Made by a program: the position numbers and the translations under genes
Notes under the pieces: model-generated
What the model was told of the DNA's origin: nothing
The model's database searches: none
Seen by the model: the letters and a program-made list of their open reading frames with translations, nothing else
From: an uncultured Desulfobacter sp.
GTDB taxonomy: Bacteria > Desulfobacterota > Desulfobacteria > Desulfobacterales > Desulfobacteraceae
NCBI GenBank assembly: GCA_963665095.1
Contig: OY762069.1
Span: forward strand, 2,464,001 to 2,528,000
Direction of reading: 5' to 3'
Length of the DNA stretch: 64,000 nucleotides
Part shown: positions 9,205 through 32,544 of the stretch, piece by piece
How the letters are laid out: every line of letters begins with the position of its first letter
Numbering within the stretch: the first letter of the stretch is position 1

Positions 9205-9212
9205 TCTCTATA

Positions 9213-10103
9213 CTAACCATTAACCCTTGAGCTTATCAGCTCTTTGAGTACGGTAAAGTCATGGGGCTGAACTTCGGTTTCTTTTTTCAGCAGATCTTTG
9301 ACAACCGCATTCAGTTTATCTTTTCCGCTTAGGTTGGAACCGTCAGTGGCCTGGACTTTGAAGCATCCTGAATGAATAACTTGAGTTAACACCTTTTTCC
9401 CCTGGATCATATCGATCCATTTACCTTCACCGAAAACAGGTTTATCTGCGTCTCCCAACATCTGGTCAACGATATGGTTAAAACGATTCTCCAATTCATC
9501 GGGGGAAATAATCTTACAGACATCTGTTCGATGGGTTTTAAATTCACTTGCACCCTTTAATTTTTCAAGGGCAGCATCTTTAGAAGAAAATTCATCCAGG
9601 TTTGAAAATTTTTCAATCCAGTTCTTTTTCAGTTCCTCCCGAATGGATGTAACGACATAATTTGCGGCATCCATAAACAGCCTATCTTCAACAAATTGAA
9701 GTATTTTTCGTTCAATTTCCTCCTGGCTCACTTCACGATATTTCGACTGAAACAGATATCCGGGCTCAAGAAAATAGTTTTCGATTTCCCGCTTTTTCCA
9801 TATGAGCAGATTATGCTTATCCGGATCAGGAAAATTGGCCCAGCATTGTTCAATGAAATCATCTCTATGGTGATCTCGGTCAATCAAAAAATAATAGGAA
9901 GGATGATAACTATACAAGGCCTGTGCAACACTTTTTACCGAATAAGACGGGCCTAAGGGTTCAATTTTAATATGATCCTCCCCAAACAGCTCATTTAATA
10001 CCTGCGGATCAACAGAGTTGCGGTCTTTGCCTTCAACAAAGAGGACATGCCGGCTTTGCTGGCGGACTTCCTCCGGACGGATTCCACGCTCAAGACGAAC
10101 CAT
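9213..10103 (-). CDS. TOPRIM/DUF4435-like nuclease (PARIS AriB-like)
   Basis: LFVEG..D, LIDRD, REIENY motifs; TGATG-coupled to the upstream ABC ATPase. Confidence 0.7.
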   Translation of the reverse strand: MVRLERGIRPEEVRQQSRHVLFVEGKDRNSVDPQVLNELFGEDHIKIEPLGPSYSVKSVAQALYSYHPSYYFLIDRDHHRDDFIEQCWANFPDPDKHNLLIWKKREIENYFLEPGYLFQSKYREVSQEEIERKILQFVEDRLFMDAANYVVTSIREELKKNWIEKFSNLDEFSSKDAALEKLKGASEFKTHRTDVCKIISPDELENRFNHIVDQMLGDADKPVFGEGKWIDMIQGKKVLTQVIHSGCFKVQATDGSNLSGKDKLNAVVKDLLKKETEVQPHDFTVLKELISSRVNG

Positions 10104-11182
10104 CAGGCATTCTCCCGGTTATTGGTCAACAGGACCCGCCTGTCTTTCTCCACAGAGTCCATAACATCCTCGGAGTGCGTTGCCATGATATATTGATTGT
10201 TCGGAGCCAGAGAGATCAATCGTTTTACAAAGCTTCTATGCCATTGTGCATTCAAATGAAGTTCAGGTTCATCGATAAAAACAACCGAGGGTTTACCCCT
10301 GGTATGGTGCCAAATCAGAAAAAGGGTTGCAATGATCTCTTTTTGTCCTGAACTTAATCCGTCAAAAGTCATTGATTTTGGGCCGCCATTAATACCGATT
10401 CTAATATCTACGGTATTGTCGGATGAAGGTCTTAGCTTATGAATCGTACCACCGGCGTAGGCCATGACAAGTTCATTTAATTTATCAATTGTCTCATCCG
10501 GTTCCTGATTTTCACTTGTTTCAAAAAGGTCTGCCTGGTTCATTAAAGCCCGAAGTATCTGGAGCTTGAACTCACTCAAGGGGAATTCATACATGCTGTT
10601 ACGGTACATCCGGCCTGACCGCTGGGGCTCTCCCACCATCATCCCCAGTTCAGGATTGCCTTCCTGTACTTTCCGGTAGCTGTGAAAAAATAAAAAAGAA
10701 TTCTCTATCACTGGATTGGGAGATAATCCACAGATGGCCTTGATCAAATTTTCCGTATCGGCACCCGGATCAAATAATCCTTTATCCATCATGATATTGT
10801 GAAAATTATCCCCGGTGGCTTTCACAACACCATTTCTGTCAATCCGGATCTGGATACTGACAGTCTCGTCACCAACGACAATGTCTCCGGATATTTTGAC
10901 CGCCTGACTCCCGGCTCGAATCAATAAATCCGGGACATCTATGGTTGAATGTTTCTCTCGTAATTTGAACCGACCCTCTCTGATGGTCAAGGACAGCAGT
11001 AACAGGGAACAGCATTCCATGATAGATGTTTTTCCAAGACCATTCTGACTGCCCATGATCAAAATATCCGGGTCATCCGGTAATTTCGGGATGGGAAAAT
11101 CCATTTCAAGATGATCAATTCCCTTATAGTTATTGATCTCCAGTCGTCTTAATTTGATTGGAATATTTTGTTCTCGTTTCAT
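10103..11182 (-). CDS. AAA_21/ABC-type ATPase (PARIS AriA / OLD-like)
   Basis: INNYKGI, Walker A GSQNGLGKTS, signature LSSGQ, Walker B FIDEPELHL, H-loop ATHS. Confidence 0.85.
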   Translation of the reverse strand: MKREQNIPIKLRRLEINNYKGIDHLEMDFPIPKLPDDPDILIMGSQNGLGKTSIMECCSLLLLSLTIREGRFKLREKHSTIDVPDLLIRAGSQAVKISGDIVVGDETVSIQIRIDRNGVVKATGDNFHNIMMDKGLFDPGADTENLIKAICGLSPNPVIENSFLFFHSYRKVQEGNPELGMMVGEPQRSGRMYRNSMYEFPLSEFKLQILRALMNQADLFETSENQEPDETIDKLNELVMAYAGGTIHKLRPSSDNTVDIRIGINGGPKSMTFDGLSSGQKEIIATLFLIWHHTRGKPSVVFIDEPELHLNAQWHRSFVKRLISLAPNNQYIMATHSEDVMDSVEKDRRVLLTNNRENA

Positions 11183-11196
11183 AATATTCCTCCTTG

Positions 11197-13995
11197 CTAA
11201 TCACCAATTCTTGTGACGGATTGATCATACCACATGAGCAGTTTGGGATCTTCTTCAAGAATTTTGTTTGGTATCTTTTCGGCCACCTTTACAATGACAG
11301 CGTAATCTTTATCCTGCCAGGCCTTCTTAAATCCTGCTCTAACTGCCTCTAAACGGAACACTTTCAGTTTCTTTTTGGCTTGCTTATATTCTTCAAACTC
11401 TTTTAACAGTACCTTTTCACGAAGTTTTTCAAGATCTCCTGCTTTGTTTGGATCGGGTACATACCAGCGGTCTTTGGCTTTGGCTTTTAGAACAGGATCG
11501 TCTTTTTCAAGGTTTCGCATGTCTTTCCAGTTGGAGGACAGATAGGCATGAATTTGCTCTGGAACGTTACCCTCTCCCAAAAAACAAAGAAAATTTTGTT
11601 CAAGTAAGGTTGAGAGTTCTAAGGATTTTTCATTTTTACTCCATCCTCCGATGTCTCTTATAAATTGAGGATGTAATTCTTGGAAACTTTGTGGTTTGTC
11701 TCCTAATCGCTCTCTAAGCCATTGGCGTGCTGAATTTTCATCTGTGATAAAAAGAGATAATTGTTCAATTTCTCTAACAGTTATTCGTTTTTTGTCATAT
11801 TCAACAACTTGATCTGGTAAAAAAAACATACCATCTCTTTCAGAAAAGCGCTGAATTAATCCATTATAGAATTCAGCTGAAGATAGTGGAATAGATACTC
11901 CTCGCTGGACATGAAAAGCAACCATTCGATCATAAAGAAGAAAATTCTGTCGTTCTGCTAAAATCTCAAGTTTTTGTCCTTTCGACACAAAAACAGGAAG
12001 CTGACTTAGATGTGTTCTAACAAACTCCCAGGCACCATCTTCGGTACCTGCTTTTTGAATAAATCTTTCCTCAAGCCCACCGTTAGGTTTGTATGCTGAA
12101 ATTATTAAATCCTGTTTTACTGAATTCGAGAATGTTAACTGCTTTGTTGTTCCCTTTTTTTTATCCATTACCCGGACATCTGCAACCACTAATCCAGCAG
12201 CTTGTAAAGCTTCATTGATAGCTGTCCACACGACATTCTTTGAATTATGGAATTCCATTGTCAACCACGCCCCTGATTTTAAAACCCGAACACATTCCTT
12301 GAGAGCGAGACCCATTAACGATTTATAATCATAAATGCTTTTATTCATTGCGGGAGAGATAATAGCTTCAGGAGATCTATTAGAAAACAATCCTATCCAC
12401 CATTCCCAAAGAAAGTTTAATTCTGAGTAAAATAGATTTGCGCCAAATGGGGGATCCATAAAAACGTAATCGATTGAACTATCAGGTAGTTGACTAATAT
12501 TTGTTGCAGACTGTGTAGAGCAAAAAGAGTTATTTGGGAAAGAATGTTCCCATAATTTCTTGATATCTTTTATCTTGCTTTTTATATATTGAATTGGATT
12601 AACTTCAATCCCTATTGCTGGTATATATAATGTACCAGAAAGAGGCCCGACAACTTCTCTGCTTCTATTACCTCTGTGTTGTGGCATATATCGATTCATT
12701 TTAGACAATCTAAGTGCCGCACTTGTTAGGGCAAACCAGAGTTTCCTGTTTTTCAGTTTATTGCGCAGCAACGCCATCGCATACAAATTTCTGTTAGTAT
12801 AAAAATGATGTACATGTGTAACGCCTAAATGCACACCGGCCCGCCATGTATCCCCCCAAGCCTCCCCCTTAAAAATCATTGGCACGGCTTCTACATCAGA
12901 ATATAAAGTGTCACTTGATGAGATGATGTCAAAGTCTTCTTGAGACGGGTACTTTTCATAGCGTTTACCTCCGTATTCATAGCTTATTAAAACAGGTTTT
13001 CTTTTATGTCTTAATAGAGCCGATTTTACTATTGGGTCAAACCATGTCTCTGTGGCTCTTTCAATTAATTGGGCAGGACCCTTTTTGACAAATTTGGGTT
13101 CTTTGCATAGATTTACTGAACAAGTAGGACATTTAAAAACATCCAAAACTTGACAATGGAAAAGTTTAACTGCCTCTTCCCAATATGTGAATTCTTCTCC
13201 ACATTCAGGACAAACATAAACGTCACTCCATACAGTATAAATGATGACGCCATATTCATCAGGGCTACAATCTCTATTTTGGGGCTTTACCTTTTGGGAA
13301 CGAGCTATATTAGCGGGCCATCCATTATGTAATGTTCTGTAATATTTTTTACAATCCTCAAAAGTCGATTCAATTTTCTCTTCGAGAGACTTAATTAAAT
13401 TGTTTGGTCTCTCAATTGAATGTGAATAATGAGACGCAATGTAAGAAGCGATAGGACTAAGTTCATTTAAAATTACCCGTCTTGGTTGCTCAGATATATT
13501 TTCCTCATTACACTGGGCCACGGCAACTGCAGTCATACCTGTACCAGCAAACGGGTCTATAATAATATCTCCAGGCTCTGTATAATGTTTGATTAATGGA
13601 GCGATTGCTTCGGGTGGGACTTTCGTATGGTATGTATGAACATTATAAATACGACCATGTTTACTTCCTGTCAGGTCGTCTGAAAAGGCCGTTTTACTAT
13701 CTTGTTTTCTTTTTTTATTATTTGCCGAGTCTATTACTATTTGGTCTAAGAAAGGATTAGGACAAGCTGTATAATATGGCGGATCACTCAATGCAAGTAT
13801 GTCTTCATCTTCACCAATGGGAAAGCCTTCAATTTCCCTAAACTCGGGATTTTTTAATTTTTCACGTAAAAGTTCGGTGAAATGATCTCTCCTGTCCTCG
13901 TCATTCTCAAATTCCATTCCAAGACAGGTGACAGGCCCATGGGAGTTGTTTTTCAGGTCAATATCAAAACCAGGTAATTTCATCTCTTTACTCAC
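11197..13995 (-). CDS. pglXI: BREX-3 DNA methyltransferase PglXI
   Basis: N-terminal FPIGEDEDILALSDPPYYTACPNP, HTYHTKVP, DPFAGTGMT (SAM binding), DPPF (catalytic), WYVPDPNKAGDLEKLR C-terminus; likely start GTG 13995 (SD AGGAG, GTGA overlap with the upstream gene). Confidence 0.85.
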   Translation of the reverse strand: MSKEMKLPGFDIDLKNNSHGPVTCLGMEFENDEDRRDHFTELLREKLKNPEFREIEGFPIGEDEDILALSDPPYYTACPNPFLDQIVIDSANNKKRKQDSKTAFSDDLTGSKHGRIYNVHTYHTKVPPEAIAPLIKHYTEPGDIIIDPFAGTGMTAVAVAQCNEENISEQPRRVILNELSPIASYIASHYSHSIERPNNLIKSLEEKIESTFEDCKKYYRTLHNGWPANIARSQKVKPQNRDCSPDEYGVIIYTVWSDVYVCPECGEEFTYWEEAVKLFHCQVLDVFKCPTCSVNLCKEPKFVKKGPAQLIERATETWFDPIVKSALLRHKRKPVLISYEYGGKRYEKYPSQEDFDIISSSDTLYSDVEAVPMIFKGEAWGDTWRAGVHLGVTHVHHFYTNRNLYAMALLRNKLKNRKLWFALTSAALRLSKMNRYMPQHRGNRSREVVGPLSGTLYIPAIGIEVNPIQYIKSKIKDIKKLWEHSFPNNSFCSTQSATNISQLPDSSIDYVFMDPPFGANLFYSELNFLWEWWIGLFSNRSPEAIISPAMNKSIYDYKSLMGLALKECVRVLKSGAWLTMEFHNSKNVVWTAINEALQAAGLVVADVRVMDKKKGTTKQLTFSNSVKQDLIISAYKPNGGLEERFIQKAGTEDGAWEFVRTHLSQLPVFVSKGQKLEILAERQNFLLYDRMVAFHVQRGVSIPLSSAEFYNGLIQRFSERDGMFFLPDQVVEYDKKRITVREIEQLSLFITDENSARQWLRERLGDKPQSFQELHPQFIRDIGGWSKNEKSLELSTLLEQNFLCFLGEGNVPEQIHAYLSSNWKDMRNLEKDDPVLKAKAKDRWYVPDPNKAGDLEKLREKVLLKEFEEYKQAKKKLKVFRLEAVRAGFKKAWQDKDYAVIVKVAEKIPNKILEEDPKLLMWYDQSVTRIGD

Positions 13996-14663
13996 GACAG
14001 GCAACTCCTTAAATCTACCCACAAATGGGAAAGTTTAAAATCCGAAGGGACCACATGTTTTCTGTTCAAATCAGTACAGCAGCAATCGACCGTTACAAGA
14101 GAGTTAAAATATAAAACGATTTTTGAGGGCACTAAATTAGCATTTACTTCTTTGAGAATGCTGTCAGGTGCCATACTGATAATATATCCGATCATCATAC
14201 CCGATGAGACATCTTTACCATATTCATGATTTTGGCAATCAAACCGGAAAACACCATCGGTCACATAATTTTTGTTCAAAATCCAATTTTTGCTGGTTGG
14301 ATCGCCCAGCAATTTGCATTCAACATCGAAAAAAAGGTTTTCCCCTTTTTCAGGGTCAAATTTAGGGCATATAAAATCCGGTTTTGGTAAAGAATTAAGA
14401 CTTGTTTTAATTGCCTTGTCAGGATCTTGTTTCGGCAGTTGCGCCAACGGTGCCGGTATTTCGGCTTTTTTTTTCAGCGACCATGATTTACAAACGGTTT
14501 TTAAAATACCAAATAAAACGGCACTGATTTCATCCTCTTTTTGGGGTAAAGAGGTTCGTTGTTTCAATTTTTTTAAAGAGTGGAAAAATACGCTTTGATA
14601 CAAGGCTGTATGTTCCGTCCAAAGATTTCTTTTTTTAAGGGAGAGTGCCTTTCGTGCCATCAA
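13992..14663 (-). CDS. Putative PD-(D/E)XK endonuclease
   Basis: KPDF...FDVECKLL (PD..ExK), YVTDGVFRF, GMMIGY; coupled to the MTase upstream and pglXI downstream. Confidence 0.6.
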   Translation of the reverse strand: MMARKALSLKKRNLWTEHTALYQSVFFHSLKKLKQRTSLPQKEDEISAVLFGILKTVCKSWSLKKKAEIPAPLAQLPKQDPDKAIKTSLNSLPKPDFICPKFDPEKGENLFFDVECKLLGDPTSKNWILNKNYVTDGVFRFDCQNHEYGKDVSSGMMIGYIISMAPDSILKEVNANLVPSKIVLYFNSLVTVDCCCTDLNRKHVVPSDFKLSHLWVDLRSCLS

Positions 14664-17600
14664 GCCCCCCCCTGGTTGGGTTGAATTTCCAGCTTCATGG
14701 CTTTAACCAGGGTTGAATCCGCATCCTCACGTGCCAGGCTCCGGGTCCAGAACCGTTTTTCATTGCGTTTAATGACAATGATGCTGTTATCGCTCACAAT
14801 ATGAACAATCCCATCTAATAGAATTTGAGATGTGCCCATGGGATGTGGCAGATTTTTTCCGATCTCTTCAAGAACATATCCCCAGGAATCAATCCTGGGG
14901 GTTAAGTCCCACTTATCTCCAATGTCTGCCGGATAAAACTCCATGGCAACCATATTGCCGGATGCTCCTATATGAAGATCCGCCCGCATAACTTCATCTT
15001 CATTTAAATACGGTTGCCAGCGTTTTGCAAACCGGTCAGCATAGTTCAGCATCCAGAGGCTCTTTTTATCATCGACGGCAGGCATTTTTCCAACACTTTT
15101 ATAAGGCTGATAAAAAAACGGTATAGTGACCTCACAGCAATCCCGTATCAGGTCCCTTTGTTCGTCCGTAAAATCATACAGGTCAAACACGGCCTCATCC
15201 AGTTCAGTTTCCCATTCTTGCCTTGTGGTATCTATTTCTTCCTGAGGTACCCCATTCGGGCAGGTGATGTCTCTTACTTGAGGATGATAATCGCGAAGAT
15301 TGTTAACAATTGAAACAATTTTTTGGCTATATAATTGCGACAATTTCTCAGGCAATAAAAGATGTAACAATTCCCCGAGTAAAATTTTATGATACCATAA
15401 TCCCCAGTTGGTACTCGTATTAAAAAAAAAGTATCGCGCAAAGGATGACCACAGAATGCCAATAATTAATAAGTAATCATTTTTATAATGGCTTTTTAAT
15501 TTAAATCCGTATACGGAACGATAGAAACTAAAATCTGTATCCTCAAATCTCGATAATATTTCCCCGTTTTTATTTCCTTTCTCAGTGATTCCTTCATTAA
15601 AGATAATTTTATCTCCAATGTATGCGTCTGTTGGACCGGTATTATATATAAACTCAGGTGTGGAATTTAAAGGCAATGTCCCATATCTTTCCGGAATAAC
15701 TCTTAATGTCTTTTCAGGGAGCCCTTTACTGCTCATTTTTTTTTCATAAGTTTGATATCCGCGTCCACATCCTTCCTTGTTATCAGCGATTAGTCGATTC
15801 AACATGACTCCAGACAAGGATCTTATGAAAATTGTATCGGCATATCTTCCAAACCAGTTAATCTTCCATGTTGTTTTGTCCGTTAAATCCTGCTGGATAA
15901 GAAAAGAACGATCATATTTAGTAAGTAAAATTGCTTGCGTGGCTTTCAAAGCCGAGACCTGTTTAAGTGACCAATACTCAACAGGCGTTTTCTCTTGATT
16001 CGCTTTTTTGAAATGAATTAAGAGAAACGGTGAATTTGCTCCTTTGAAATAAAATTTCCGTACATGTGTAAAATTGAAAACTTCTTTTATACAGACTTTA
16101 TCCATCCATTTTTTTCGAAAAGCCTCACTTTTCGAACTATATTTAAAAAGGACACCCGCAGAAACCAACAAGGCACCGGCACCTCCTGATTTCAAGAAGT
16201 CTTTAGCCCTCCAAAGAAACGCCTGGGACGGCTCCTTATTACCAATTGGAAAATCTCTTTTTTGACACCATTGCAGCATAATGTTTTTACGGTTGATGGT
16301 TTCGTCATCAGCTTTGTTCCCAGGATCACCCCATGGGGGATTCCCCAAAACAATATCAATGTCTTTGATGTCAATTTTAAAAGCATTGCCGACATGAATA
16401 CTCCCATCCTGGCCTTCATACTCATTTTCTGGAACAATCAGACCTGGAAGCCTGTTGCCTTTTTTTATATGATCAATGATAGACGGTGGATCAAGGTAAT
16501 GCAACATGGCCAGATACAGGCTGAAAGCTGTTATGCGAGCCGCCTCTGCGTTAACCTCAATGCCAACGATCTGCTGTGCAAGAACCTGTTTTAGTTCATC
16601 GAATGACGGCATCTCAGAAGTTTGTTTAATGCGGTAACGAACTATACGGCGAAATGCTTCCACCAGGAAAATTCCCGATCCGCAGGCCGGGTCCAGTATT
16701 CTGGGGTTCTGTCTTAGAATTTCAGGGCTTAAAACCCGGGAGCAGACAAATTCTGCCAGAACCGGGGGGGTATAATATGCGCCATCCTGTCTGGCTTTTT
16801 TCTTTTTTTGCTTTTCGTCTGACGCGGGGTCATAAAATTCTTCATAAATGGCACTAATTAAATCAAGAGGAATAATGTCAAACCGGTATGAAAAAAAGAA
16901 AAGCTTTTTTTGTATTCCGGCATCACCGTATAGCAAATCCAGGATAAGTTTAAGATGCTTTTCTTCTATGACCCGTTCTTCATCATCAATATCCGGGAAC
17001 ATATCCCCGTTAAAATCGCCTGACAACTGCCGAAATAGAGCATAGGTGAAAGATTTATCTTGAAGAACTCTCGGATAAAAGGTTTTCGTACCGGAAAAAT
17101 CAAAGAGTTCCTTTGATAACGGCTGGCTCAGAAGATTTTTCCATTCTTCTGAGCCCCTTGCTATTTTGTTAAAATATTCATTATTCAGAATTCCCCTGTC
17201 TTCAAGGTAACGAATAAAAATGGAACGGCCAATCAATGCATGAACATATGAAACATGATTCTGCAAACCCAGGCCCAGCAGTTCTCTTCTGACGGTTTTC
17301 AAATCTGCTATCAGCGCTTTGTCTGCCCTGTTTTTAATATTTCCAAAACGACCTTGTTCAAACAGCTTACCGGATTCAATATGATCCCTGTGAAAATCTT
17401 GCAGTTTTTGGGACACCGCTTTGATTGACTTAAGGGTAGCAAGTGTTTTCAACTGTGGTAACTTGCCTGATTCTTCAAAACGAACAGGAGGCTGGGCCAT
17501 ATCCATAACTGTCAATTCCCCCTCGGATTCAAGAAATAGTATCCGCGGCCGGGACAGACACCACAACCTGTTAAACGCTTCAATCCTGGCAAAATCTCCT

Positions 17601-17806
17601 TTGCCGCATCTGGCAAAGACAACTACGGGGTTGTTATCAACAAAAAATATTTTTTCCGCACCTGCTTTTTGGGCTGCAGAAAACCAGTCTCCCAGGTTCA
17701 GCCATTCCTCATCACCAAGGGTTCTTGCGGGTTCTGATACGTCATGCAGTCGCCCCTGCTTGAAGTCAAGTTGTTCTATTGTTGATTCCAGAAGAGTTGT
17801 TACCAT
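14660..17806 (-). CDS. Large N6-adenine DNA methyltransferase (Eco57I/HsdM-like, with TRD region)
   Basis: GAYYTPP, ILDPACGSGIFL, GNPPW motifs; 1048 aa; SD AGGAGG. Confidence 0.88.
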   Translation of the reverse strand: MVTTLLESTIEQLDFKQGRLHDVSEPARTLGDEEWLNLGDWFSAAQKAGAEKIFFVDNNPVVVFARCGKGDFARIEAFNRLWCLSRPRILFLESEGELTVMDMAQPPVRFEESGKLPQLKTLATLKSIKAVSQKLQDFHRDHIESGKLFEQGRFGNIKNRADKALIADLKTVRRELLGLGLQNHVSYVHALIGRSIFIRYLEDRGILNNEYFNKIARGSEEWKNLLSQPLSKELFDFSGTKTFYPRVLQDKSFTYALFRQLSGDFNGDMFPDIDDEERVIEEKHLKLILDLLYGDAGIQKKLFFFSYRFDIIPLDLISAIYEEFYDPASDEKQKKKKARQDGAYYTPPVLAEFVCSRVLSPEILRQNPRILDPACGSGIFLVEAFRRIVRYRIKQTSEMPSFDELKQVLAQQIVGIEVNAEAARITAFSLYLAMLHYLDPPSIIDHIKKGNRLPGLIVPENEYEGQDGSIHVGNAFKIDIKDIDIVLGNPPWGDPGNKADDETINRKNIMLQWCQKRDFPIGNKEPSQAFLWRAKDFLKSGGAGALLVSAGVLFKYSSKSEAFRKKWMDKVCIKEVFNFTHVRKFYFKGANSPFLLIHFKKANQEKTPVEYWSLKQVSALKATQAILLTKYDRSFLIQQDLTDKTTWKINWFGRYADTIFIRSLSGVMLNRLIADNKEGCGRGYQTYEKKMSSKGLPEKTLRVIPERYGTLPLNSTPEFIYNTGPTDAYIGDKIIFNEGITEKGNKNGEILSRFEDTDFSFYRSVYGFKLKSHYKNDYLLIIGILWSSFARYFFFNTSTNWGLWYHKILLGELLHLLLPEKLSQLYSQKIVSIVNNLRDYHPQVRDITCPNGVPQEEIDTTRQEWETELDEAVFDLYDFTDEQRDLIRDCCEVTIPFFYQPYKSVGKMPAVDDKKSLWMLNYADRFAKRWQPYLNEDEVMRADLHIGASGNMVAMEFYPADIGDKWDLTPRIDSWGYVLEEIGKNLPHPMGTSQILLDGIVHIVSDNSIIVIKRNEKRFWTRSLAREDADSTLVKAMKLEIQPNQGGA

Positions 17807-17897
17807 GTCAATTCCTCCTTTGAATCAATGTTTTGACGCTCAAAAAGAAGCACTTAAATTTATCCTTACCAGTGAATCTGTTCATCTTATTTTCTTA

Positions 17898-17924
17898 ATC
17901 TGCGTAATCTGCGGATTATTCAAT
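17898..17924 (+). repeat. 27-bp direct repeat, copy 1 (REP-like half)
   Basis: ATCTGCGTAATCTGCGGATTATTCAAT; 1 mismatch to 20239-20265. Confidence 0.85.
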
Positions 17925-17925
17925 C

Positions 17926-18942
17926 TTAAAGATCCATATCCATTTCACCCGCAATTTTTTCAGCCAACAGCTTAAAATCTTTCCGGGCATCGGCAACGGC
18001 ATTGGCGTGGCTACCGATAGCACCATCTGCGGATGTCAGTCGAAAAATCGGTTTGCGGTGTTCCTGGGCCATGGGAACAAGGCTGCGGTAATGTTTGATT
18101 GTGGCAAGGCAATAGGGGTCATGCTGCTGTTTGATTTTTTTCTCAAGTTTCTCATTCATAACAGACTCCCTGTATACCTGGGGAATACGCTGCACCCATT
18201 TATCATAGGCTTTAACCGGACGATCCAGCCGCACACTGTGTTGCTGGCATAAATACCCGACAGGTTTCATGTCCCCGGCAGGCAAAATAAAATCCGGATA
18301 GTTTTGATGGTCTGAACTTTCCTCCCAGTTAACCAACCGTTTTTTCCACAGGTTCTTCCAGCTTTTCAGGGTGGGTCCCAGGTTTTTTAAGCCCTGCAAA
18401 GAGAACAGGTCCGCCCCAAGAGGGATGGCGACATAATCAGTTGCCAACAGGACGGATCTGTTTATGGCCCCGAGGTTCGGGCCGATATCCACCAGTATGA
18501 TATCAGCCTGGACCTTGGCGGAAGCCTTTTGCATCACCTGCCAGAATGAGCTGAGAATCCGCATGGGACGGTAAAGATTATAATCCCCCATACTGTGAGG
18601 CCATTCGTTTGATAATGAATCCTCAAAACCGGAAAGTTCAACATCACCGGGAAGAAGATAAAGGTCGGTCGCAATATTCTGCAACTTGGGTTCAAGGATA
18701 TCACCCACATCGGTCAACGGCTTTACACATTGATAAATGGTATGCCCTGACCGCTGTTTACTCCATAACGCTTCTATTTCATCTTCAGTCAGAAAAGCAG
18801 CCGTGAGATTTGCCTGGGGATCAATATCAACAACGACCACCCGTTTTCTAAGGGATGCGTACATCCAGGACAAATGGTAGATCAGGGAAGTTTTTCCTAC
18901 CCCGCCTTTATTGTTAAAAAACGTCAAAACCGGTGTCGTCAT
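17926..18942 (-). CDS. ParA/MinD-family ATPase (defence-island type)
   Basis: FFNNKGGVGKTS deviant Walker A, DIDPQANLT, VDIGPNLGAINR; likely start ATG 18942 (SD AGGAG, ATGA overlap). Confidence 0.85.
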   Translation of the reverse strand: MTTPVLTFFNNKGGVGKTSLIYHLSWMYASLRKRVVVVDIDPQANLTAAFLTEDEIEALWSKQRSGHTIYQCVKPLTDVGDILEPKLQNIATDLYLLPGDVELSGFEDSLSNEWPHSMGDYNLYRPMRILSSFWQVMQKASAKVQADIILVDIGPNLGAINRSVLLATDYVAIPLGADLFSLQGLKNLGPTLKSWKNLWKKRLVNWEESSDHQNYPDFILPAGDMKPVGYLCQQHSVRLDRPVKAYDKWVQRIPQVYRESVMNEKLEKKIKQQHDPYCLATIKHYRSLVPMAQEHRKPIFRLTSADGAIGSHANAVADARKDFKLLAEKIAGEMDMDL

Positions 18943-20147
18943 AATTTGCTCCTGATGATACATTGAACCGTACTCTGGTTGACTTCGAATTGTAATTCAG
19001 GATTCCCATTATCCCTTAATTTTTTGCGGGCAATCTCAATCCCCCTGCCAAAGGCCTGGACATAGCCGAATGTCTTCAGGATATCTGCGATATTGGGATT
19101 GCGATAATCCGTTACACCCGGCGTTCCAAAATTTTCAACAGTGACATTTCCGTAAGGCCCTCCGGGGCTTGTAATCTCAATGCGGTCATTGAACCAGTAA
19201 ACCATTATGGGCGCGTTTGTTTTCTCATAGGTCCTGTGGAGAACCGCATTATAGATAATTTGATGAGCAGCCGCCAGGGGATAGGGTTGCGTTATATCAT
19301 GAGTGGCGGCAGAGGTCACATCAACGGATGTCCGATTGTGGGCGGTTAATTTTTCGTCAATCCGACGTAACATTTCAACAACTGCGCCGCCAATATCTTG
19401 TTCATCGATTACCGGGTCTGCCCATTCAACCCCGTCAATGCGCAGAAATTGAATCCGGGCGCCTGTGATAAAATCCTGGGGGCTTTTACCGATGGCCAGC
19501 AGTCCCATAATTGTCGGTGTCGTATCTGTTGGAGAAACAATTATTTTACAGGATGCCAACCGTTCTTCATAGGTGCGTCCATTTGATTCAAGAATATCCT
19601 CGGCAAAGGCAGCCGGGAGATATTCACTTTCAAAAATCACCCGGGACAGATCCGACAGTGTCGCGGTGGGTACCGGATAAAGATCAAAAGGAAGGCTTTT
19701 GTACCGTCTTTTTTCATTCAATATCCGTTCTTCCTGTTCGTTTGCAATGGAGCGGCGGGGACCCGTTCGGACCCAGATCCGGCCTTCATATTTAACCGGG
19801 GGCATGTCCGAGGGCATCACCGTAACAATTGCCATTTCAGCATTTTTTAAGACACGTTTCTCAACGGACAGAACCGGCAAAGGTAATATGTTTCCATCGG
19901 TCTTCATGTCGGCAAGCGCAATAAGCAACTGGTCGGTGATTTCAAGGTTTGATGGCTCTCCGTTATCTTGCGCGCCTATGAACAACACACCCGGCTCATT
20001 ATATCCGGGCAGATCATTGGCAAAAGCACAAACCGCCTGGCGGGCCTTTTTGGCAATACCTTTGGAGAAGGACTCTTTCCTTTCGGCCCGGTCGGATTCC
20101 AAGTCATTTAATAAGGCCAGTAGTTCATCATCAGTGAGCCTGTTCAT
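18939..20147 (-). CDS. AlbA_2/Schlafen domain + HATPase_c_4 protein
   Basis: ESDRAERKES...VCAFAN...GVLFIGAQDNG (AlbA_2), NAVLHRTY, DRIEITSPGG, RNPNIA...GYVQAFGRGI; no C-terminal HTH. Confidence 0.85.
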   Translation of the reverse strand: MNRLTDDELLALLNDLESDRAERKESFSKGIAKKARQAVCAFANDLPGYNEPGVLFIGAQDNGEPSNLEITDQLLIALADMKTDGNILPLPVLSVEKRVLKNAEMAIVTVMPSDMPPVKYEGRIWVRTGPRRSIANEQEERILNEKRRYKSLPFDLYPVPTATLSDLSRVIFESEYLPAAFAEDILESNGRTYEERLASCKIIVSPTDTTPTIMGLLAIGKSPQDFITGARIQFLRIDGVEWADPVIDEQDIGGAVVEMLRRIDEKLTAHNRTSVDVTSAATHDITQPYPLAAAHQIIYNAVLHRTYEKTNAPIMVYWFNDRIEITSPGGPYGNVTVENFGTPGVTDYRNPNIADILKTFGYVQAFGRGIEIARKKLRDNGNPELQFEVNQSTVQCIIRSKL

Positions 20148-20183
20148 TATCTTTTCCTATATCCCATATATATCCTGTCAACT

Positions 20184-20265
20184 ATCCGCAGATTACGCTG
20201 ATTCTCGCAGATGATTTTATATATCTTTTTCTGCGTCCATCTGCGTAATCTGCGGATCATTCAAT
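20184..20265. repeat. REP-like palindrome plus copy 2 of the 27-bp direct repeat
   Basis: ATCCGCAGATTACGC (20184) ... GCGTAATCTGCGGAT (20257) inverted arms; 20239-20265 = ATCTGCGTAATCTGCGGATCATTCAAT, overlapping the brxC stop. Confidence 0.85.
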
Positions 20266-23200
20266 AACGATCCTCACTTTTGACGGCTCTTTTCCCTGGG
20301 TCAGTTTGTCTATGTAATCCTCAAAACGTTTCTTCATCTCCGAAGGGGTGCCGGGTCCGGAATTGGCCTGGAGTTGTTTTTGCAGGTCTTCAACCTTTAT
20401 GGAAACTTTAACCAATCCGGATAATACTTCTTTCAAGCCATGAACAAAATTACTGTCAATGGGTGTCGGCAATTTTTTAGATTTAAGAAACCCATCCAGT
20501 TTTTTACGGTCATCTACCTTGAGCAAGTCCATATTGGCCTGTGTAATGGGATCTTCCAGGTTTGAATACAAAATCATGGTCCAATTGTTCACAAGCTCAT
20601 CGAGCTGTTCATCAAATTGATCCATTACATTGCTTTGTATAGCCATTTTCGTTTCTAAGGATGGCCTGAAACCACAATGAGGACAAATAGGGGAAGAGTC
20701 CAGATCTTTCTCCATCAGTGAGAAACAGGTTTTCAGCCCGGCCAGCTTGTTCTGGTACTCAGTCAACTGCTGCCTGGGCATCAGATCTATACCCGCCAGT
20801 TTTAACAACGTCTGCAACCGTTGATCATTCATTAATGATGATTTGCGCTTGTCGTCGTTTACCCCTAACCGGGACTGAGTATGCAGATCAACATAAAAAA
20901 CCAGATATTCTTTTTTTAACTTTGACAGTGTTATTCCAATCTCATTGGATTTAGCCGCCACTTCTGACGGCTTGATTCCTTTGAGGGATTCCAGAACGCT
21001 AAGTTTTGCCTGCTTCATATCTACAGTCCATTGGTGATCTGAAGGCAGGACGGCTTCGGCGGTGGTCAGCCAGGATGCCTGTGGCCCATACTCCATTACA
21101 AATTCACGCAGGGCTGCCAATTCATCAGTAACCCTTATGGCCTTTTGATGTTCTAAGATCTCATCAGAACTGTATTTGAAATTTTTAAGTTTCCCCGGTG
21201 ACGAGTAGGCCTGGAGGGATTCAAAAAAGGTTTTTGCTTTGTTCAACGCATCAGATCTGTCCTTGGCACCTGTAATATTGAGAATATCAACACCCCAGAA
21301 CGTAACTCCTTCACGGATAAACTGCTGACTCATAACAATACGCTTAACAAGCTTATTCAATTTTGTCTGGAGTTGCTGAACCGGTTCGTCTTTTCCTTTG
21401 GTTACCATCTGGGCCATGCCGGCGGGTAAACCCACCATCTCAAATAATGTCTTTAACGCCGGTATATTCCAGTCTTTGGGCTGTTCCAGATGTTTGAACC
21501 GGACTAAGTCTTCCAACTTTGCAGCAGCAAGCTGGGGCAATGCGGTAGCATCAAACTTTTTACCCGGCACGGCAAGAACGATTTCCCCTGTATACACCAA
21601 TGAAGCGACAACCACGATCACCCATTCCGGTTCCAGCCTTGAACCACCGGGGTTCATATATTCCAATCCCTGATCATCATGAATGATCTCATTGCGGTTG
21701 ATTACCTGGCCGTGTCCCTTTCCTTTTACAATATCAAGGATGAACCGGGTGTATGGCGATTGGTAGGGATCGATTTTTTCTCCATCGAGAAGGTCTAATG
21801 CATCGAGCACGGCAGTTGCCTGTTTGGTCCGTTTCTGCCCGGCAAGACTTCTGAGTGCGTCCTGGGCAGCCTGTTCCCGGTTGCGCCCCGTAATCAATAC
21901 GGAAAAGAAAGGATAGTCAGGCGCCTGGTTTTCAAAATGCGGGGCCAGACAAATCCCTGATATGGTATTTACAAGGTCACGGAAGTTAATGGTTTCATCA
22001 GGTGCAAGCCCGGTTAAATCCCGTATGGATTTTCCTTGAGCCCATTTTGTCATCGGCTTGGTCCGGCCTTGGTAAGTCACTTCAAAAGCATCTGACATAT
22101 TTTTCTGCAGCCATTGGACCAACTCCCGCAAGAAACCATTTGCCTTTGATTCATATGTTGCTTTAGCGTGACCTGAGGAGGTTTGTGCCAGACCCAGGGC
22201 AGCCGCATAATTCTTTAAAGATGCAGTGAATTCTTCATCTGTCTTTTTCAACCTGAAGAACAGCTCATCGCCTCTTTTCTCATCCGTGAACTTGGGCGGG
22301 TCATTGGGTTGAATAAAATACAGATAAAAATCCCTTTGGGGAACAACGGTTGACCGTTGGTTGGGCGCCCCAAAGAACAGGTATCCTGTTCTGGCGGCTT
22401 TACGATCCTGCCAGGTCAATTCATGCTGCCAGATGCTGTACCCGGTAACGTATGTTGTCGTATCCTGGCATTCCATCACCCGTTTAAGGGCTTCATAATA
22501 AAAACGGTCAAGCTGGGGGTTCCCAAGCGTATCCGCCTTGCTTTCGATAAGCGCATCAAAATCGTCGGTCTTTTTAAGATCTAAATAATATTGCTGGTTG
22601 TTCTTATTATGGGAGATGAACTGCCCACTTACGGTTTTATGGATTTCACGCAGGACCGTTTCTACATGGCCCCGCATATCCTTATCAACTTCATCGCCTC
22701 CAAGTTCAGCAACCATGGCGTCAAACAGGCATAACCGGTCCCTGAGTTCCTCGGCGGTTGCTCCCATGGGAGCATAGATGTCACCGGTTGTCAGTCTGTG
22801 AACGGAAAGCGCATGAATCAGACGAATCGCCATGGGCTTGTATTGCTTTCGGGTAATCGCATTATTGATCCGGGATTCTAACACCTGGCTGCACTCTATG
22901 ACGGCACGGATCTGTGGAATGGATCTAAAAGAGGCATTCTGATTCAACGTATTCCAATAGGAGTCAAATGCAATCAGTCCAGGTTCATCCTGGGGAATCT
23001 GCCTATCAAGCAGGTTCTTCATCCCAAGGGAGAGAGTTTTTAATATTTCCCTTTTCTCAACAACAGTGACCCTTTCAAACGTATCTATATAATCCGGATG
23101 AACAGGAAACAATCTGACGAATTCATCCATTCTTTCATTCATGTTTCCATAAAATTTTGTGAAAGGTAAAAGATAATCACGAATCAAGGACTGCTGCTCT

Positions 23201-23991
23201 GCCGTCTTTTTTAAAAGTCGTTCTGCAACAACGAATTTCACATCATTGCGTGCGATCAGAATCTGTTCAAACCTGTCTTTTACCCTTCGGATGCTGTCTG
23301 CGACAAATGCAAAACCCGGGCTATCAAAAATAGCTTCCTGAACCCCGGCCATGAACCTGAATCTCAAATCTTTACAGACTTCACCAACTTCACGTAAAAA
23401 ATTCAGATCAAGTATTATGTCATGGTCCTTACGTGTTTTGAGAAAATCAAGAAGCTCATCAACGACAAGGAGAAGTCCCTGATCCGGATAAACTTCACCA
23501 AATCGAGTCATCATCTCTTCAAATGCGCTTTTATGGTTTGAAATCGAGTCTGCTTCGGGGAAGACATAATCGACGCCAAGATTATCAAGACTCTCTTCAA
23601 GTTCTGCCACAAGTATGTCACGTAAAGACATGGTAGAGTATCCGATTTCAGTCCGGACGACTTTAAACCGTCCTGCTATCTTTGCAGCCTCTTTTTTGAC
23701 ATTGGGATGATTGATGCTATCCAGTAAAGAGGCATCAGCGGCAACACATGAAATTACAGACATCAGGTGGGATTTACCTGTACCGTAATTCCCGACAATT
23801 AAAAGTCCCTTATTGTCAACAGGCTGATCAAACTGAATCTGTGGAATGGCTAGTTGTGCCATCCTTTCAGCCATTTCATCGGATATCACATAGGTGTCCA
23901 CAAGTTGCTGTGCGGACTGGGACTTGTCCGCATCACGTAGCTGAACAATCGTTTCGATGGGATCAAATTGTATCAGTTCTCCGTATTTCAT
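20257..23991 (-). CDS. brxC: BREX-3 BrxC/PglY ATPase (DUF6079-like)
   Basis: [11 protein letters not shown]alker [12 protein letters not shown]alker B, FPVHP, C-terminal CPHCGF; 1244 aa. Confidence 0.88.
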
Positions 23992-24503
23992 GCCGGTCCT
24001 GCCTCTCTTATATTTTTTTCAATATCAATTGTAGATGTCCCATCCATACCTATGATTATTGTGTCTTCGGGGGCATAGGCCTTATATTCAGGATGGTCAG
24101 GTTCTGCATAGATAAGCTTATTTTTTTCGTACACGCCATTCCAGGATGCGACAATGGTCTTGTTCCTGGATAATCCCTGCAACAGTTTTAACGGATCTTG
24201 CTTTAATCCTTCGTCAAATAAGATTTCATTATTATCAAGGATCACTAATGGGCCGGCTTCATTAACGATTGCAGATATCACCTTCGGCAGTCTTAAAATC
24301 CTTCTCTTTGCCGTAAGCTCTAACAATTGTTCAGAAAGGACAATATTTGTATTTATTACCTGTGTCTCATACTCTTTTGCAACATCCGAAAGCACTGCTG
24401 TCTTACCGGAACCGCTTTCTCCCACCACCAATATCAACCTGTTGTATAATTCTTCAGCAGTGGGCAGCATTCCAATTATCTGGTTTTGTACTGACTTAAC
24501 CAT
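23988..24503 (-). CDS. brxF: BREX-3 P-loop protein BrxF
   Basis: [44 protein letters not shown]; probable start ATG 24503; ATGA overlap with brxC. Confidence 0.88.
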
Positions 24504-24513
24504 ATTAATTCCC

Positions 24514-24729
24514 CTAATTATCTGAATTAGACCGCTGGGCTTTATTGGCTGCGCAACCTTTTTCAACCCATTCATCAACTTGAATCTTTTTGAATTTCCA
24601 GAGGCGCCCTATCTTATGAGCAGGCATCCCCTTATCATTGATCCACCGATAAATCGTATCTCGTTTGACTCCAAGATATTCTGCAATTTCATCAACTGAC
24701 AACCACCTGTCTTCCATGTTATTTCCCAC
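24514..24729 (-). CDS. Excisionase/MerR-like HTH (HTH_17) protein heading the BREX operon
   Basis: RWLSVDEIAEYLGVKRDTIYRWI..GMPAHKIGRLWKF. Confidence 0.85.
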   Translation of the reverse strand: MGNNMEDRWLSVDEIAEYLGVKRDTIYRWINDKGMPAHKIGRLWKFKKIQVDEWVEKGCAANKAQRSNSDN

Positions 24730-25662
24730 CCCATGGTCATTTCAAAGCCTCTTTCTATTGGCTATTATAACCAAAACAGCCTTTTCCAAGCTTAATCAAA
24801 AAGCAATAACTCAAACGAATTACATTGGAGATTACAAAGATAGGGAATAAAAATCAAATCGATTCTTTTCGATTTTAACCTATTTTATTGGGTTGTTTTA
24901 TAATTTAAACTCACCTTGAGGCAACAGACAATACCAACCTCCTGTGATTATAGGGGAAATGATGCTTGTGATAAATCTTGATCTTGTGTTCAGAGGAGGG
25001 GGCGAGGACTATGTCAAATATGAGGTCCGCTTTTCAGAAGAATGAACACAGTAGACTATCCCTGTCAGTACACACTTTTTAAATCCTCAAACCGGCGAGC
25101 AATATTACGTGTATCCTGGGGGTTCCGATTCCTACTAATTCAAATTTTTTAGCAGACCGCAATAATGGTATCTAAGCTCGTTTTTTCTCCCGATCCCCAA
25201 CCACAACATCTGGTATGTGGCCATATTCTGAACTTGTGGGAAAAATCAAGATTATGCCCTGTTAAATATCCTCGAAAGGCAGGACTTACAGAACAAAAAA
25301 AAGGCCCCACATTAACCGCAGAAGCGCCTTGCTTTTGGACCGGTTCAGCCTGGCAGGGTACCAGGGGCTTAAACGGGTCAGATTATGAATTCAACACATG
25401 CCGGATATTACCAGCCAAGGTTTTTAAATTCCAGTCCTCCTGGTCCTCTTCCATCTGCCGGGCCAAGTCAGTCATGAAACGCTCAAGCCGGTCTAACCGG
25501 TTAGAATTAAGATTCTTCCATCCATTTGTGATATTTTATAATTCCCCATTTTTCTTCATCCTCTTCGGTCCATTGATCTTCATTTTTTGGCGGCTTTTTT
25601 TAGGGAAATCAAGTGCATTCACGGCAAGGACATATCTTGTGTCGCTTTGCCCGGGGAAGGGG

Positions 25663-26670
25663 TTAGCTGTATCTCAACTCAAAACCACACAATAAATTCA
25701 TGATCAGCCTTATTATGGTGTCTTTCTGATTCGGTGCTGATTCCGCCACTAACAACGTCAAAGCAGCCAAGCCGGTATCGTTCATTATGGGGTTTCCATC
25801 TGGGTTCAGCAGCCGCCCATTTCGGTGAAGGAAATCCACGAATAAAAAGGCTCCGCTACGCTTATTGCCATCAATGAATGGATGATTCTTAACGACAAAA
25901 TAAAGAAGGTGGGCAGCCTTGCTTTCAATGGTGGGGTAGGCAGGCTCACCAAAAACGGTTTGATCCAGGTTGCCAAATATTCCGGCAAGGCTGTCAGGCT
26001 TGGAAGATTTGGCAAACAAATCTGAAGCCTGCCCCTGATCCATCAATTGAGATTATAACTTTACCAGTGATGCCATTGCATCCTTTGGGCTCAACAACAA
26101 TCCTCCCGCATGCCCTTTAGGATCTTCTAAAAGCCCTTCATCATACTGCTGAAGCCATAGAAAGGTTTGAGTATACCGGCCCATGATATCCACCAGGCCC
26201 CGGCCCATATCTGTCTGCAAAGAAGGCGATTGAGCAGCCCGCCGGATCAGGACAAGCGCCTGTTCAAGTTCTGCTGCATTTTGCTGGAATCGTTGCTGGT
26301 TGACAGAGTATCCTTTAACCAAATACTCCTTTAACCGGTGGGTGGCCCAGATACGAAACCGGGTTCCTTTTATAGAATTAACCCGGTAACCCACCGAGAT
26401 AATGGCGTCCAAATTAAATTATTCCACCTGATACGTCTTTTGATCTGCAGCAGTTGTTGCAAATTTTGCAACAACTGAGTCCCGAACAAGTTCGCCGGTT
26501 TTAAAAATGTTCCTTAAATGTCGGCTTATGCCTGATTTATCCACCCCAAACAATTCAACCATTTGGGCCTGGGATAACCATATAGTATCTTTTTCAAGAC
26601 GAACCTGTATCTCGGTTTGCCCATCGTCTGCCTGATAGATTTCAATCTGCCCGCATTTTGTCCAGGTCAC
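25663..26670 (-). pseudogene. RhuM-Fic/DOC family protein interrupted by two in-frame TAA stops
   Basis: Three same-frame fragments: TIWLSQAQMVELF...VAKFATTA; LDAIISVGYRVNS..GTRFRIWA; HPFIDGNKRSG (Fic motif). Stops at 26419 and 26053. Confidence 0.85.
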
Positions 26671-32008: not shown

Positions 32009-32544
32009 GCAAACAATTTTATGGCTTGGTTGATGTCGATACCTAACTTGTCCCCTTGAAGATACTGATAAATCAAACAGTTGTACCATCAGTATCTGCC
32101 GTAATCTCAAACAAGATGCTGTCATACGACAAGGCTGAGGCATGTGGCAACGGAGCTGTTCTCTTCGGTGTCTACTACGCTCTGGGCGCTGTTTGCCGGA
32201 TACGACACAATAGTCATTTCCCCGTCGCTTGCTTTGGCTTTTGTTGCCCGGACACTAAGGGTAAACTGACTGAGGCTGTCATAGTCGGAAAGCAGTGATT
32301 GAGAAGTGTCGTCATCTGTTTCCAAACCGCTGGAAATAAGGGTGGCCAGATCTATTTTGAAGGGCTGCAATATCGTCCTGCTCTTCCTGGTTCAGCTCTC
32401 CTTGAATCTCTATGGACACGGTTTCACTTGGCACTTTGATCATCAAGTAGTCCCGGGACATCTATGCCCTGCTCCCTTATATAGTAGTAATCGACTAAGG
32501 TGGCTTGGTTGGTCAAGGTCACTTGGTCTCCCTGGGCGGTAGTA

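What the first reader, a model, noticed from the sequence alone, without database searches (positions are those of the whole stretch)
17926..20147. AlbA_2/Schlafen-HATPase + ParA-like ATPase pair: candidate undescribed defence module
Seen: a 402-aa AlbA_2 + HATPase_c_4 protein without the usual C-terminal HTH, ATGA-coupled to a ParA-family ATPase, with no parB, parS or plasmid replication genes nearby, sitting inside BREX. Established: AlbA_2/Schlafen domains are RNA-binding/tRNase-type effectors, and orphan ParA proteins of the FFNNKGGVGKT type are frequent in defence islands. Inference: a sensor/switch ATPase controls a Schlafen nuclease in an abortive-infection or toxin-antitoxin-like system. 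I know of no named system with this exact architecture.
Basis: partly seen in the sequence, partly recalled or inferred. Interest (0 to 1): 0.8.

Follow-up and report, generated by a model that had tools for sequence, protein, structure and literature searches.

The report
Schlafen nuclease paired with ParA ATPase
Two overlapping genes, a Schlafen-type RNA nuclease with an ATP-binding domain and a ParA-type ATPase, recur together across several bacterial phyla and likely form an anti-phage module whose layout a 2026 preprint has already predicted but which appears never to have been tested.

Summary
A 402-aa SLFN_AlbA_2 + HATPase_c_4 protein (a "Schlatpase") overlaps by ATGA a 338-aa ParA, inserted after brxC in a type 3 BREX locus. 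The pair is a conserved unit independent of BREX: 15 of 15 ParA relatives follow a Schlatpase, 61 of 73 evaluable Schlatpase relatives precede a ParA, and 19 of 53 loci have defence neighbours (control 2 of 40). My searches found no experiment on it. Added here: (1) within this clade ParA and a fused C-terminal tail are mutually exclusive (25 of 28 tail-less linked, 0 of 10 tailed; only 3 independent events); (2) the GHKL glutamate needed for hydrolysis in RzAgo is glutamine in 120 of 120 close homologues; (3) intact Schlatpases without ParA occur, which argues against a strict antitoxin role. Best reading: ParA likely acts in trans as the sensor/switch of a tRNA nuclease. Ordinary-to-moderate interest.

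The parts
18939..20147 (-). Schlatpase gene, 402 aa: Schlafen (AlbA_2) RNase domain + GHKL/HATPase_c_4 domain, no C-terminal tail
   Evidence: fold matches 3LMM and histidine-kinase/PDK ATP domains
20076..20099 (-). Schlafen catalytic motif Ex4ExK (E17, E22, K24)
   Evidence: 119, 120 and 120 of 120 top homologues; motif defined in PMC13056530
19248..19262 (-). GHKL N-box Q296-x3-N300; Gln stands where generic Schlatpases and RzAgo have the hydrolytic Glu
   Evidence: RzAgo E314/N318
17926..18942 (-). ParA-family ATPase gene, 338 aa
18889..18909 (-). ParA deviant Walker A, KGGVGKT (K12-T18)
18939..18942 (-). ATGA overlap of Schlatpase stop and ParA start
   Evidence: conserved in 75 of 81 linked loci as NTGA
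20184..20257 (.). Hairpin repeat (28-nt arms, 86% complementary) between brxC stop and Schlatpase start; local flank, not a conserved part of the system
17898..17924 (.). 27-nt direct-repeat copy (26 of 27 identical to 20239-20265) just after the ParA stop
20257..23991 (-). Context: brxC (BREX type 3), directly upstream
14660..17806 (-). Context: type IIG restriction-modification-like gene, a second insert directly downstream
11197..14022 (-). Context: pglXI methyltransferase of BREX type 3

Best explanation
The two genes are a conserved, horizontally mobile pair that likely works as an anti-phage module, in which the ParA ATPase likely acts in trans as the infection sensor and switch and the Schlafen domain likely cuts tRNA to arrest the infected cell. 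Shown here: gene linkage, intact Schlafen and ParA motifs, defence context, exchange of ParA against fused tails, and the Glu-to-Gln change. [quoted passage not shown] Inferred: this clade lacks a fused sensor and uses ParA instead; an ATP-bound ParA dimer on invader DNA (or on disturbed host DNA) would cluster and activate the Schlatpase, and in the Gln296 branch the GHKL domain would bind but barely hydrolyse ATP, leaving the hydrolysis cycle to ParA. It is a member of the predicted ParA-effector systems, Schlafen type, and in this genome serves as a likely backup layer inside BREX-3.
For: Linkage: 15 of 15; 61 of 73 evaluable metagenome loci; in an even sample of 350 genomes of the own phylum 7 of 7 distinct places at >=35% identity linked versus 0 of 14 generic Schlatpases. 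In 1,200 genomes of three other phyla, 25 of 28 tail-less clade members are linked and 0 of 10 tailed ones; 12 of 16 tails scanned match a wHTH/Fic-like_C family; two clade members carry SAVED instead. No clade ParA was found anywhere in 7 of 7 draft genomes with tailed members. Defence neighbours 19 of 53 vs 2 of 40 control sites. The 4 next-nearest ParAs in the phylum sample (29-31% identity) sit beside SIR2_2 (1), HEPN (2) and a cyclase-like unknown (1), the partner types listed by Li et al.. Prokaryotic Schlafens cut tRNA in defence; RzAgo tetramerises through the same GHKL family. Intact tail-less Schlatpases without ParA exist (8 of 73), as expected if ParA activates rather than neutralises.
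Against: No activity data for the pair. 34 of 53 loci show no PADLOC hit within two genes. Schlafen-HisKinase fusions were among the architectures tested in E. coli and were not among the two that protected (whether those had a ParA neighbour could not be found). In RzAgo the E314A mutant lost most protection, so Gln296 could mean an impaired rather than rewired switch. Gln296 is not tied to ParA: linked members are 12 Glu and 13 Gln. Tail-versus-ParA exclusion rests on 3 independent tail gains (sign test median p 0.5, FastTree), and ParA is also lost without any tail gain. DNA binding by this ParA was not tested; conserved basic residues (K283, R286, R296, K297) are only consistent with it.
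Confidence: 0.45

Rival explanations
1. Toxin-antitoxin or guard logic: ParA binds and holds the Schlatpase inactive, and phage infection (ATP drop, a phage protein, loss of ParA from DNA) releases the nuclease.
For: Translational coupling. A Gln296 GHKL domain could stay ATP-locked and so need a restraint (inference). One relative keeps an intact ParA behind a Schlatpase cut to 106 aa (L018). The pair is found behind brxC remnants in decayed loci (L002, L006, L070), as an addictive module might be.
Against: 8 of 73 metagenome loci and 2 of 28 genome loci have an intact tail-less Schlatpase with no ParA beside it; in those 2 draft genomes no clade ParA was found at all. The putative toxin gene comes first.
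Confidence: 0.2
2. Li et al. model: ParA is the first-line effector that coats and sequesters invader DNA; the Schlafen is a loosely coupled suicide backup released when that fails.
For: Stated for all ParA-effector systems. Related ParAs pair with unrelated effectors, which suits a ParA-centred function.
Against: ParAs of this clade were always found behind a Schlatpase gene or its remnant (15 of 15; 7 of 7 genomes), whereas the Schlatpase swaps ParA for fused tails. The C-terminal region said to evolve rapidly is among the most conserved parts here (residues 281-320: 0.92 and 0.84).
Confidence: 0.15
3. Not anti-phage: a stress-response or regulatory pair, or a passenger that spreads with defence islands.
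For: 34 of 53 loci lack defence neighbours. The 96%-identical copy in L001 lies beside two-component genes. 30.4% of prokaryotic Schlafens are not near defence genes, and tested HisKinase fusions were not among the protective ones.
Against: Defence enrichment over control; repeated position directly behind brxC; intact RNase motif under purifying selection; patchy spread over distant phyla.
Confidence: 0.15
4. A dedicated BREX accessory that works only with BrxC/PglXI.
For: 11 of 53 loci adjoin BREX genes, mostly between brxC and pglX(I). Schlafen-histidine-kinase genes are reported as frequent BREX backup effectors.
Against: 42 of 53 loci are not beside BREX genes; hosts include type I RM, Shango, Ppl and AbiE loci; BREX-3 without the pair exists in relatives (L022, L025).
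Confidence: 0.05

Closest known systems
[quoted passage not shown]
   Same: Two-gene coupling of a ConB1-type ParA to a Schlafen + histidine-kinase-like ATPase protein; sister ParAs with Sirtuin and HEPN partners.
   Different: Purely computational there. The sections read do not mention the Glu-to-Gln change, the exchange of ParA against fused tails, or orphan Schlatpases. No upstream wHTH gene here. C-terminal region conserved rather than fast-evolving within this clade.
Schlatpase supradomain and SLFN-pAgo of Runella zeae (bioRxiv 10.64898/2026.05.29.728809; seen: sections 5, 9 and passages)
   Same: PF04326 + PF13749 domain pair; N-box Asn, Ex4ExK nuclease motif.
   Different: No Argonaute sensor; the Glu equivalent to E314, needed for hydrolysis and defence in RzAgo, is Gln; partner is a separate ParA gene.
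Prokaryotic Schlafens pSlfn (PMC13056530; seen: section 6, passages, one supplement search)
   Same: Catalytic Ex4(E/D)xK motif; Schlafen-HisKinase is the commonest architecture (34%).
   Different: Protective examples are single genes with fused sensors (Ig-like, DUF262); ParA is not mentioned in the main text (0 whole-word hits).
Schlafen backup effectors in BREX loci (PMC12839542; seen: passages)
   Same: Schlafen + minimal histidine kinase genes inside BREX operons.
   Different: Described with a fused wHTH and no ParA (0 whole-word hits).
PDB 3PG5 (DIP2308) and 3LMM (DIP2311), uncharacterised structural-genomics proteins
   Same: Best structural matches of the ParA (TM 0.66, E 3e-17) and of the Schlatpase (E 3e-15).
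   Different: 22% and 19% identity; 3LMM keeps the Glu (REAMLNAMIHR) and is longer (583 aa); no function given.
ParABS partition ParA/Soj
   Same: Fold and ATP motifs.
   Different: About 80 aa longer, no parB or parS, no relative at E<=1e-60 in 72,556 plasmids.

Membership tests
ParA-effector systems (Li et al. 2026) | ParA core motifs: Walker A KGGxGK[ST], sensor DxD, Walker B DhhhhD | tested here: met
   K12 63/64, K17 63/64, D39 and D41 64/64, D147 63/64, D152 64/64 (definitions)
ParA-effector systems (Li et al. 2026) | PriB1/ConB1 marks: Asn before Walker A, Val in Walker A, Gln two after DxD, Lys not Arg | tested here: met
   N10, V15, Q43 each 64/64. Weakly diagnostic: housekeeping Soj shows the same letters
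ParA-effector systems (Li et al. 2026) | Conserved two-gene coupling to an enzymatic effector, here Schlafen fused to a histidine-kinase-like domain | tested here: met
   PF13749 is called histidine kinase-like; fold hits to kinase ATP domains
ParA-effector systems (Li et al. 2026) | Same ParA branch carries variable effectors (Sirtuin, HEPN, cyclase and others) | tested here: met
   4 of 4 next-nearest ParAs: SIR2_2, HEPN_RiboL-PSP twice, one cyclase-like lead below the Atlas 0.9 bar
ParA-effector systems (Li et al. 2026) | Rapidly evolving C-terminal extension of ParA | tested here: inconclusive
   Within 64 clade members residues 281-320 are conserved; variable blocks are 201-220, 261-280, 321-338. 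Tested within one clade only
ParA-effector systems (Li et al. 2026) | Placement in the authors' ConB1 tree and accession lists | not testable with these tools
   Figures not held; bioRxiv supplements closed
ParA-effector systems (Li et al. 2026) | Enrichment in multicellular taxa | not tested
   -
Schlatpase supradomain | SLFN_AlbA_2 plus PF13749 in one chain | tested here: met
   definition
Schlatpase supradomain | Schlafen Ex4(E/D)xK active site | tested here: met
RzAgo-type hydrolytic GHKL switch | Glu four residues before the Mg-binding Asn | tested here: not met
   Q296 in 120 of 120 top homologues; Glu in 14 of 14 generic Schlatpase ORFs read in L123-L140 and 3 of 3 paralogues in this genome. 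Position assigned by motif and the 3LMM alignment, not by aligning RzAgo itself
ParABS partition system | Adjacent parB and parS, or plasmid location | tested here: not met
Type II toxin-antitoxin pair | Toxin not kept intact without its antitoxin | tested here: not met
   8 of 73 and 2 of 28 intact orphans; drafts may be incomplete
BREX type 3 core | Constant component of the locus | tested here: not met
   42 of 53 pair loci not beside BREX genes; BREX-3 without the pair in L022, L025
Anti-phage system | Protects against phage | not testable with these tools
   needs bench work

The most novel reading that the evidence does not exclude
A Schlafen tRNase whose sensor has been moved into a separate protein: a chromosome-partition ATPase replaces the fused wHTH/SAVED/Argonaute sensor, and in a large branch the nuclease's own GHKL switch has lost its hydrolytic glutamate so that ParA supplies the ATP cycle. 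This would be the first experimentally tractable case of ParA acting as an immune sensor that activates a nuclease.
Probability: 0.3. Interest if true: 0.65.

Novelty: new member of a known kind. Interest (0 to 1): 0.38.

Why it matters
The layout is already predicted in a preprint, so the finding is not a new system. It matters as a compact test case: my searches found no experiment on ParA-effector pairs, and Schlafen-histidine-kinase proteins are the commonest prokaryotic Schlafens (34%) yet were not among the protective ones when tested, which a missing partner could explain. The natural Glu/Gln and tail/ParA variants give ready-made contrasts for asking whether ParA senses, activates or restrains.

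Tried and rejected
Complex prediction of Schlatpase with ParA: no verdict (score 0.01, mark 0.32); not used for or against binding. Hypothesis that Gln296 marks the ParA-linked proteins: rejected, linked members are 12 Glu and 13 Gln, and 13 unlinked ones are 10 Glu and 3 Gln. Hypothesis that the flanking hairpins define the module: rejected, only L001 and L072 among pair loci then held carry the core. Excision between the direct repeats: joints 17915-20230 had only 20-21 letters on the short side and are explained by the same hairpin elsewhere, so no evidence. Expression: no RNA holder listed. Viral contigs: no relative; phage records: one distant ParA at 26%; plasmids: none at E<=1e-60. PADLOC and NCBIfam have no model for the pair. 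Promoter and terminator scan at chance level. The Schlatpase model is mediocre (pLDDT 68) and was used only for fold matches. The careful tree did not finish; the quick tree shows BREX-associated pairs in several branches but its change count covers only 20 labelled rows of 62. A supplement search in PMC13056530 returned only organism names. Papers 10.1101/2025.09.30.679545 and PMC13552941 (passages) do not mention ParA. Literature searches without an experimental report of the pair.

Full report
OBSERVATION. Both genes are as described. The Schlatpase spans 18939-20147 on the minus strand (402 aa; SLFN_AlbA_2 17-132, HATPase_c_4 312-397). The ParA most likely starts at 18942 (338 aa), where its ATG overlaps the upstream stop as ATGA; homologues start at the same place. 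The locus order on the minus strand is brxF, brxC, Schlatpase, ParA, a type IIG RM-like gene, a 223-aa unknown, pglXI, an ABC-type ATPase with a weakly AriB-like partner, brxHII, pglZ, brxA: a type 3 BREX locus with three inserts. The genome's housekeeping parA-parB is elsewhere, and there is no parS above chance or Rep gene among 51 window ORFs scanned.

THE PAIR IS A UNIT. With ParA as query, 15 of 15 genome loci have the Schlatpase gene directly upstream, one truncated and one frameshifted; record titles span Thermodesulfobacteriota, Pseudomonadota, Spirochaetota, Acidobacteriota, Actinomycetota and Verrucomicrobiota. With the Schlatpase as query, the best 80 of 303 metagenome loci were kept; 73 had at least 300 bases downstream, and 61 of these have ParA. 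In an even sample of 350 genomes of the own phylum, all 7 distinct places at 35% identity or more are linked, against 0 of 14 evaluable generic Schlatpases (one more had a short flank and one gave no tblastn hit). The closest copy (L001) is 96% identical over 2,253 bases from the Schlatpase ATG to just past the ParA stop and lies in a different neighbourhood. Codon differences to it are mostly synonymous. A contig of a second coded sample spans 9000-25088 with 2 differences, which may not be independent.

CONTEXT. From 81 linked loci I dropped 7 duplicates and 21 with under 3 kb of flank; for the other 53 the two nearest ORFs each side (175 proteins) were scanned against PADLOC at 1e-30. 19 of 53 have a defence neighbour: 11 BREX (9 type 3, one type 1, one type 2-like), plus type I and IIG RM, AbiE, Ppl, Shango and a PLD-SNF2 gene. 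I discounted sigma-54 RtcR, GlgB and a zero-stretch mad3 hit. Control: 2 of 40 evenly spaced sites of the own genome (136 of 150 proteins; two RtcR hits discounted likewise). Fisher p 3.5e-4 overstates, because kin are not independent and the control is one genome. 34 of 53 loci show no defence neighbour.

ANATOMY. The Schlafen motif E17-x4-E22-x-K24 is intact and matches the motif needed for defence in RorSlfn5. The GHKL N-box reads Q296-x3-N300. RzAgo uses E314 and N318 here; E314A keeps ATP binding, loses hydrolysis and loses most protection. Gln is invariant in 120 of 120 top homologues; among 116 of the 150 distant representatives in which the site aligned it is 56 Gln, 59 Glu, 1 Arg; generic Schlatpases have Glu (3LMM). 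ParA keeps all ATP motifs, folds confidently (pLDDT 91) and is closest to 3PG5, then Soj.

WHAT PARA REPLACES. Three further phylum samples (400 genomes each) gave 47 loci; after removing 3 centre genomes, 3 partial genes and 3 short flanks, 38 remained. 25 of 28 tail-less proteins are followed by ParA (one of the other three has ParA 1.3 kb further on), and 0 of 10 tailed ones. 12 of 16 tails scanned match wHTH or Fic-like_C families, and two unplaced clade members carry SAVED. On a FastTree of 74 rows the clade is separate from generic Schlatpases, tails arise 3 times, each without ParA, and ParA state changes 9 times; three contrasts cannot reach significance. No clade ParA was found in 7 drafts with tailed members nor in 2 drafts with intact tail-less orphans (incomplete genomes do not prove absence). 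ParA linkage is wider than the Gln change (12 Glu, 13 Gln).

MECHANISM. By homology to RzAgo, the small Schlafen domain needs GHKL-driven assembly to form its active cleft. The clade couples this module to interchangeable sensors, fused or, most often, ParA in trans. Orphan Schlatpases (8 of 73; 2 of 28) favour ParA as activator over antitoxin. I put this at 0.45, antitoxin/guard at 0.2, ParA-first with Schlafen backup at 0.15, non-defence at 0.15, BREX-only at 0.05; a defence role of some kind totals about 0.85. Activation, DNA sensing, tRNA cleavage and any physical contact are inferred, not shown.

COMPARISON. [quoted passage not shown] The next-nearest ParAs in my sample pair with SIR2_2 and HEPN genes, also on their list. 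All testable defining features were met except the fast-evolving C-terminus (inconclusive); their tree and accession lists could not be seen, so exact clade identity is likely, not proven. The domain pair is the Schlatpase of Kuzmenko et al.. PADLOC and NCBIfam have no model. Searches found no experimental report; the library lacks most subscription papers.

FLANKING REPEATS. A hairpin at 20184-20257 and a 27-nt copy of one arm at 17898-17924 bracket the pair; an 18-nt core occurs only there and once weakly elsewhere in the 6.9-Mb genome. In relatives the same hairpins flank small PDDEXK_3 genes (GxxExxY type; name recalled) in polysaccharide loci, and L001 has a full hairpin after ParA. They may have helped move this copy (inference) but are not part of the system.

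VERDICT. Real, conserved, probably defensive, already predicted in architecture, untested as far as searched. New member of a known kind; interest 0.38, up to 0.65 if ParA proves to be a trans-acting sensor for a hydrolysis-dead Schlafen-ATPase.

Noticed in passing
window 20184-20257 and 17898-17924; L021, L024, L026, L031, L034, L035: A family of intergenic hairpins (core near ATCTGCGTAATCTGCGG) occurs in clusters in relatives, flanking small PDDEXK_3 (GxxExxY-type) genes and toxin-antitoxin-like genes in polysaccharide loci; a literature search for GxxExxY listed 2 unrelated papers. Possibly a little-studied mobile cassette element.
   Followed up: partly
window 13992-17806 (-): A type IIG RM-like gene (1048 aa) overlaps a 223-aa unknown with PD-(D/E)XK-like letters; Atlas finds unnamed clusters, nearest named ones are restriction endonucleases below the bar. 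A second insert in BREX-3.
   Followed up: partly
window 9213-11182 (-): ABC-type ATPase (AAA_15/AAA_21) plus a 296-aa partner with weak AriB/DUF4435 matches between pglXI and brxHII; PARIS-like, also in L037 and L064.
   Followed up: partly
window 25663-26670 (-): RhuM + Fic/DOC gene in three pieces at the island's upstream edge.
   Followed up: partly
window 25051-25200: A 100-150 nt repeat with about 9 blastn matches elsewhere in the genome marks the island edge; many variants in sequencing runs.
   Followed up: no
window 32519-33307 (-): Fragments of a tyrosine-integrase-like gene (judged from sequence; no Pfam hit at 1e-5); IS66 transposase pieces at 36213 and 54029.
   Followed up: no
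P0130, P0152: Gln-type Schlatpases fused to a C-terminal SAVED domain, suggesting use as cyclic-nucleotide-activated effectors.
   Followed up: partly
L080:2011-2481, L083:1515-1997: Close Schlatpase homologues (about 71%) with an unknown acidic 160-aa C-terminal domain and no ParA.
   Followed up: partly
L055, L071, L073, L077, L078: A second, generic Glu-type Schlatpase follows a Ppl gene a few kb downstream of the pair.
   Followed up: no
PDB 3PG5 and 3LMM: The best structural matches of both proteins come from one organism with close locus numbers (DIP2308, DIP2311).
   Followed up: no
L018, L020: Two same-genus relatives hold decaying copies at one shared site: Schlatpase cut to about 110 aa in both; ParA intact in one, truncated with a Walker A change in the other.
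   Followed up: partly
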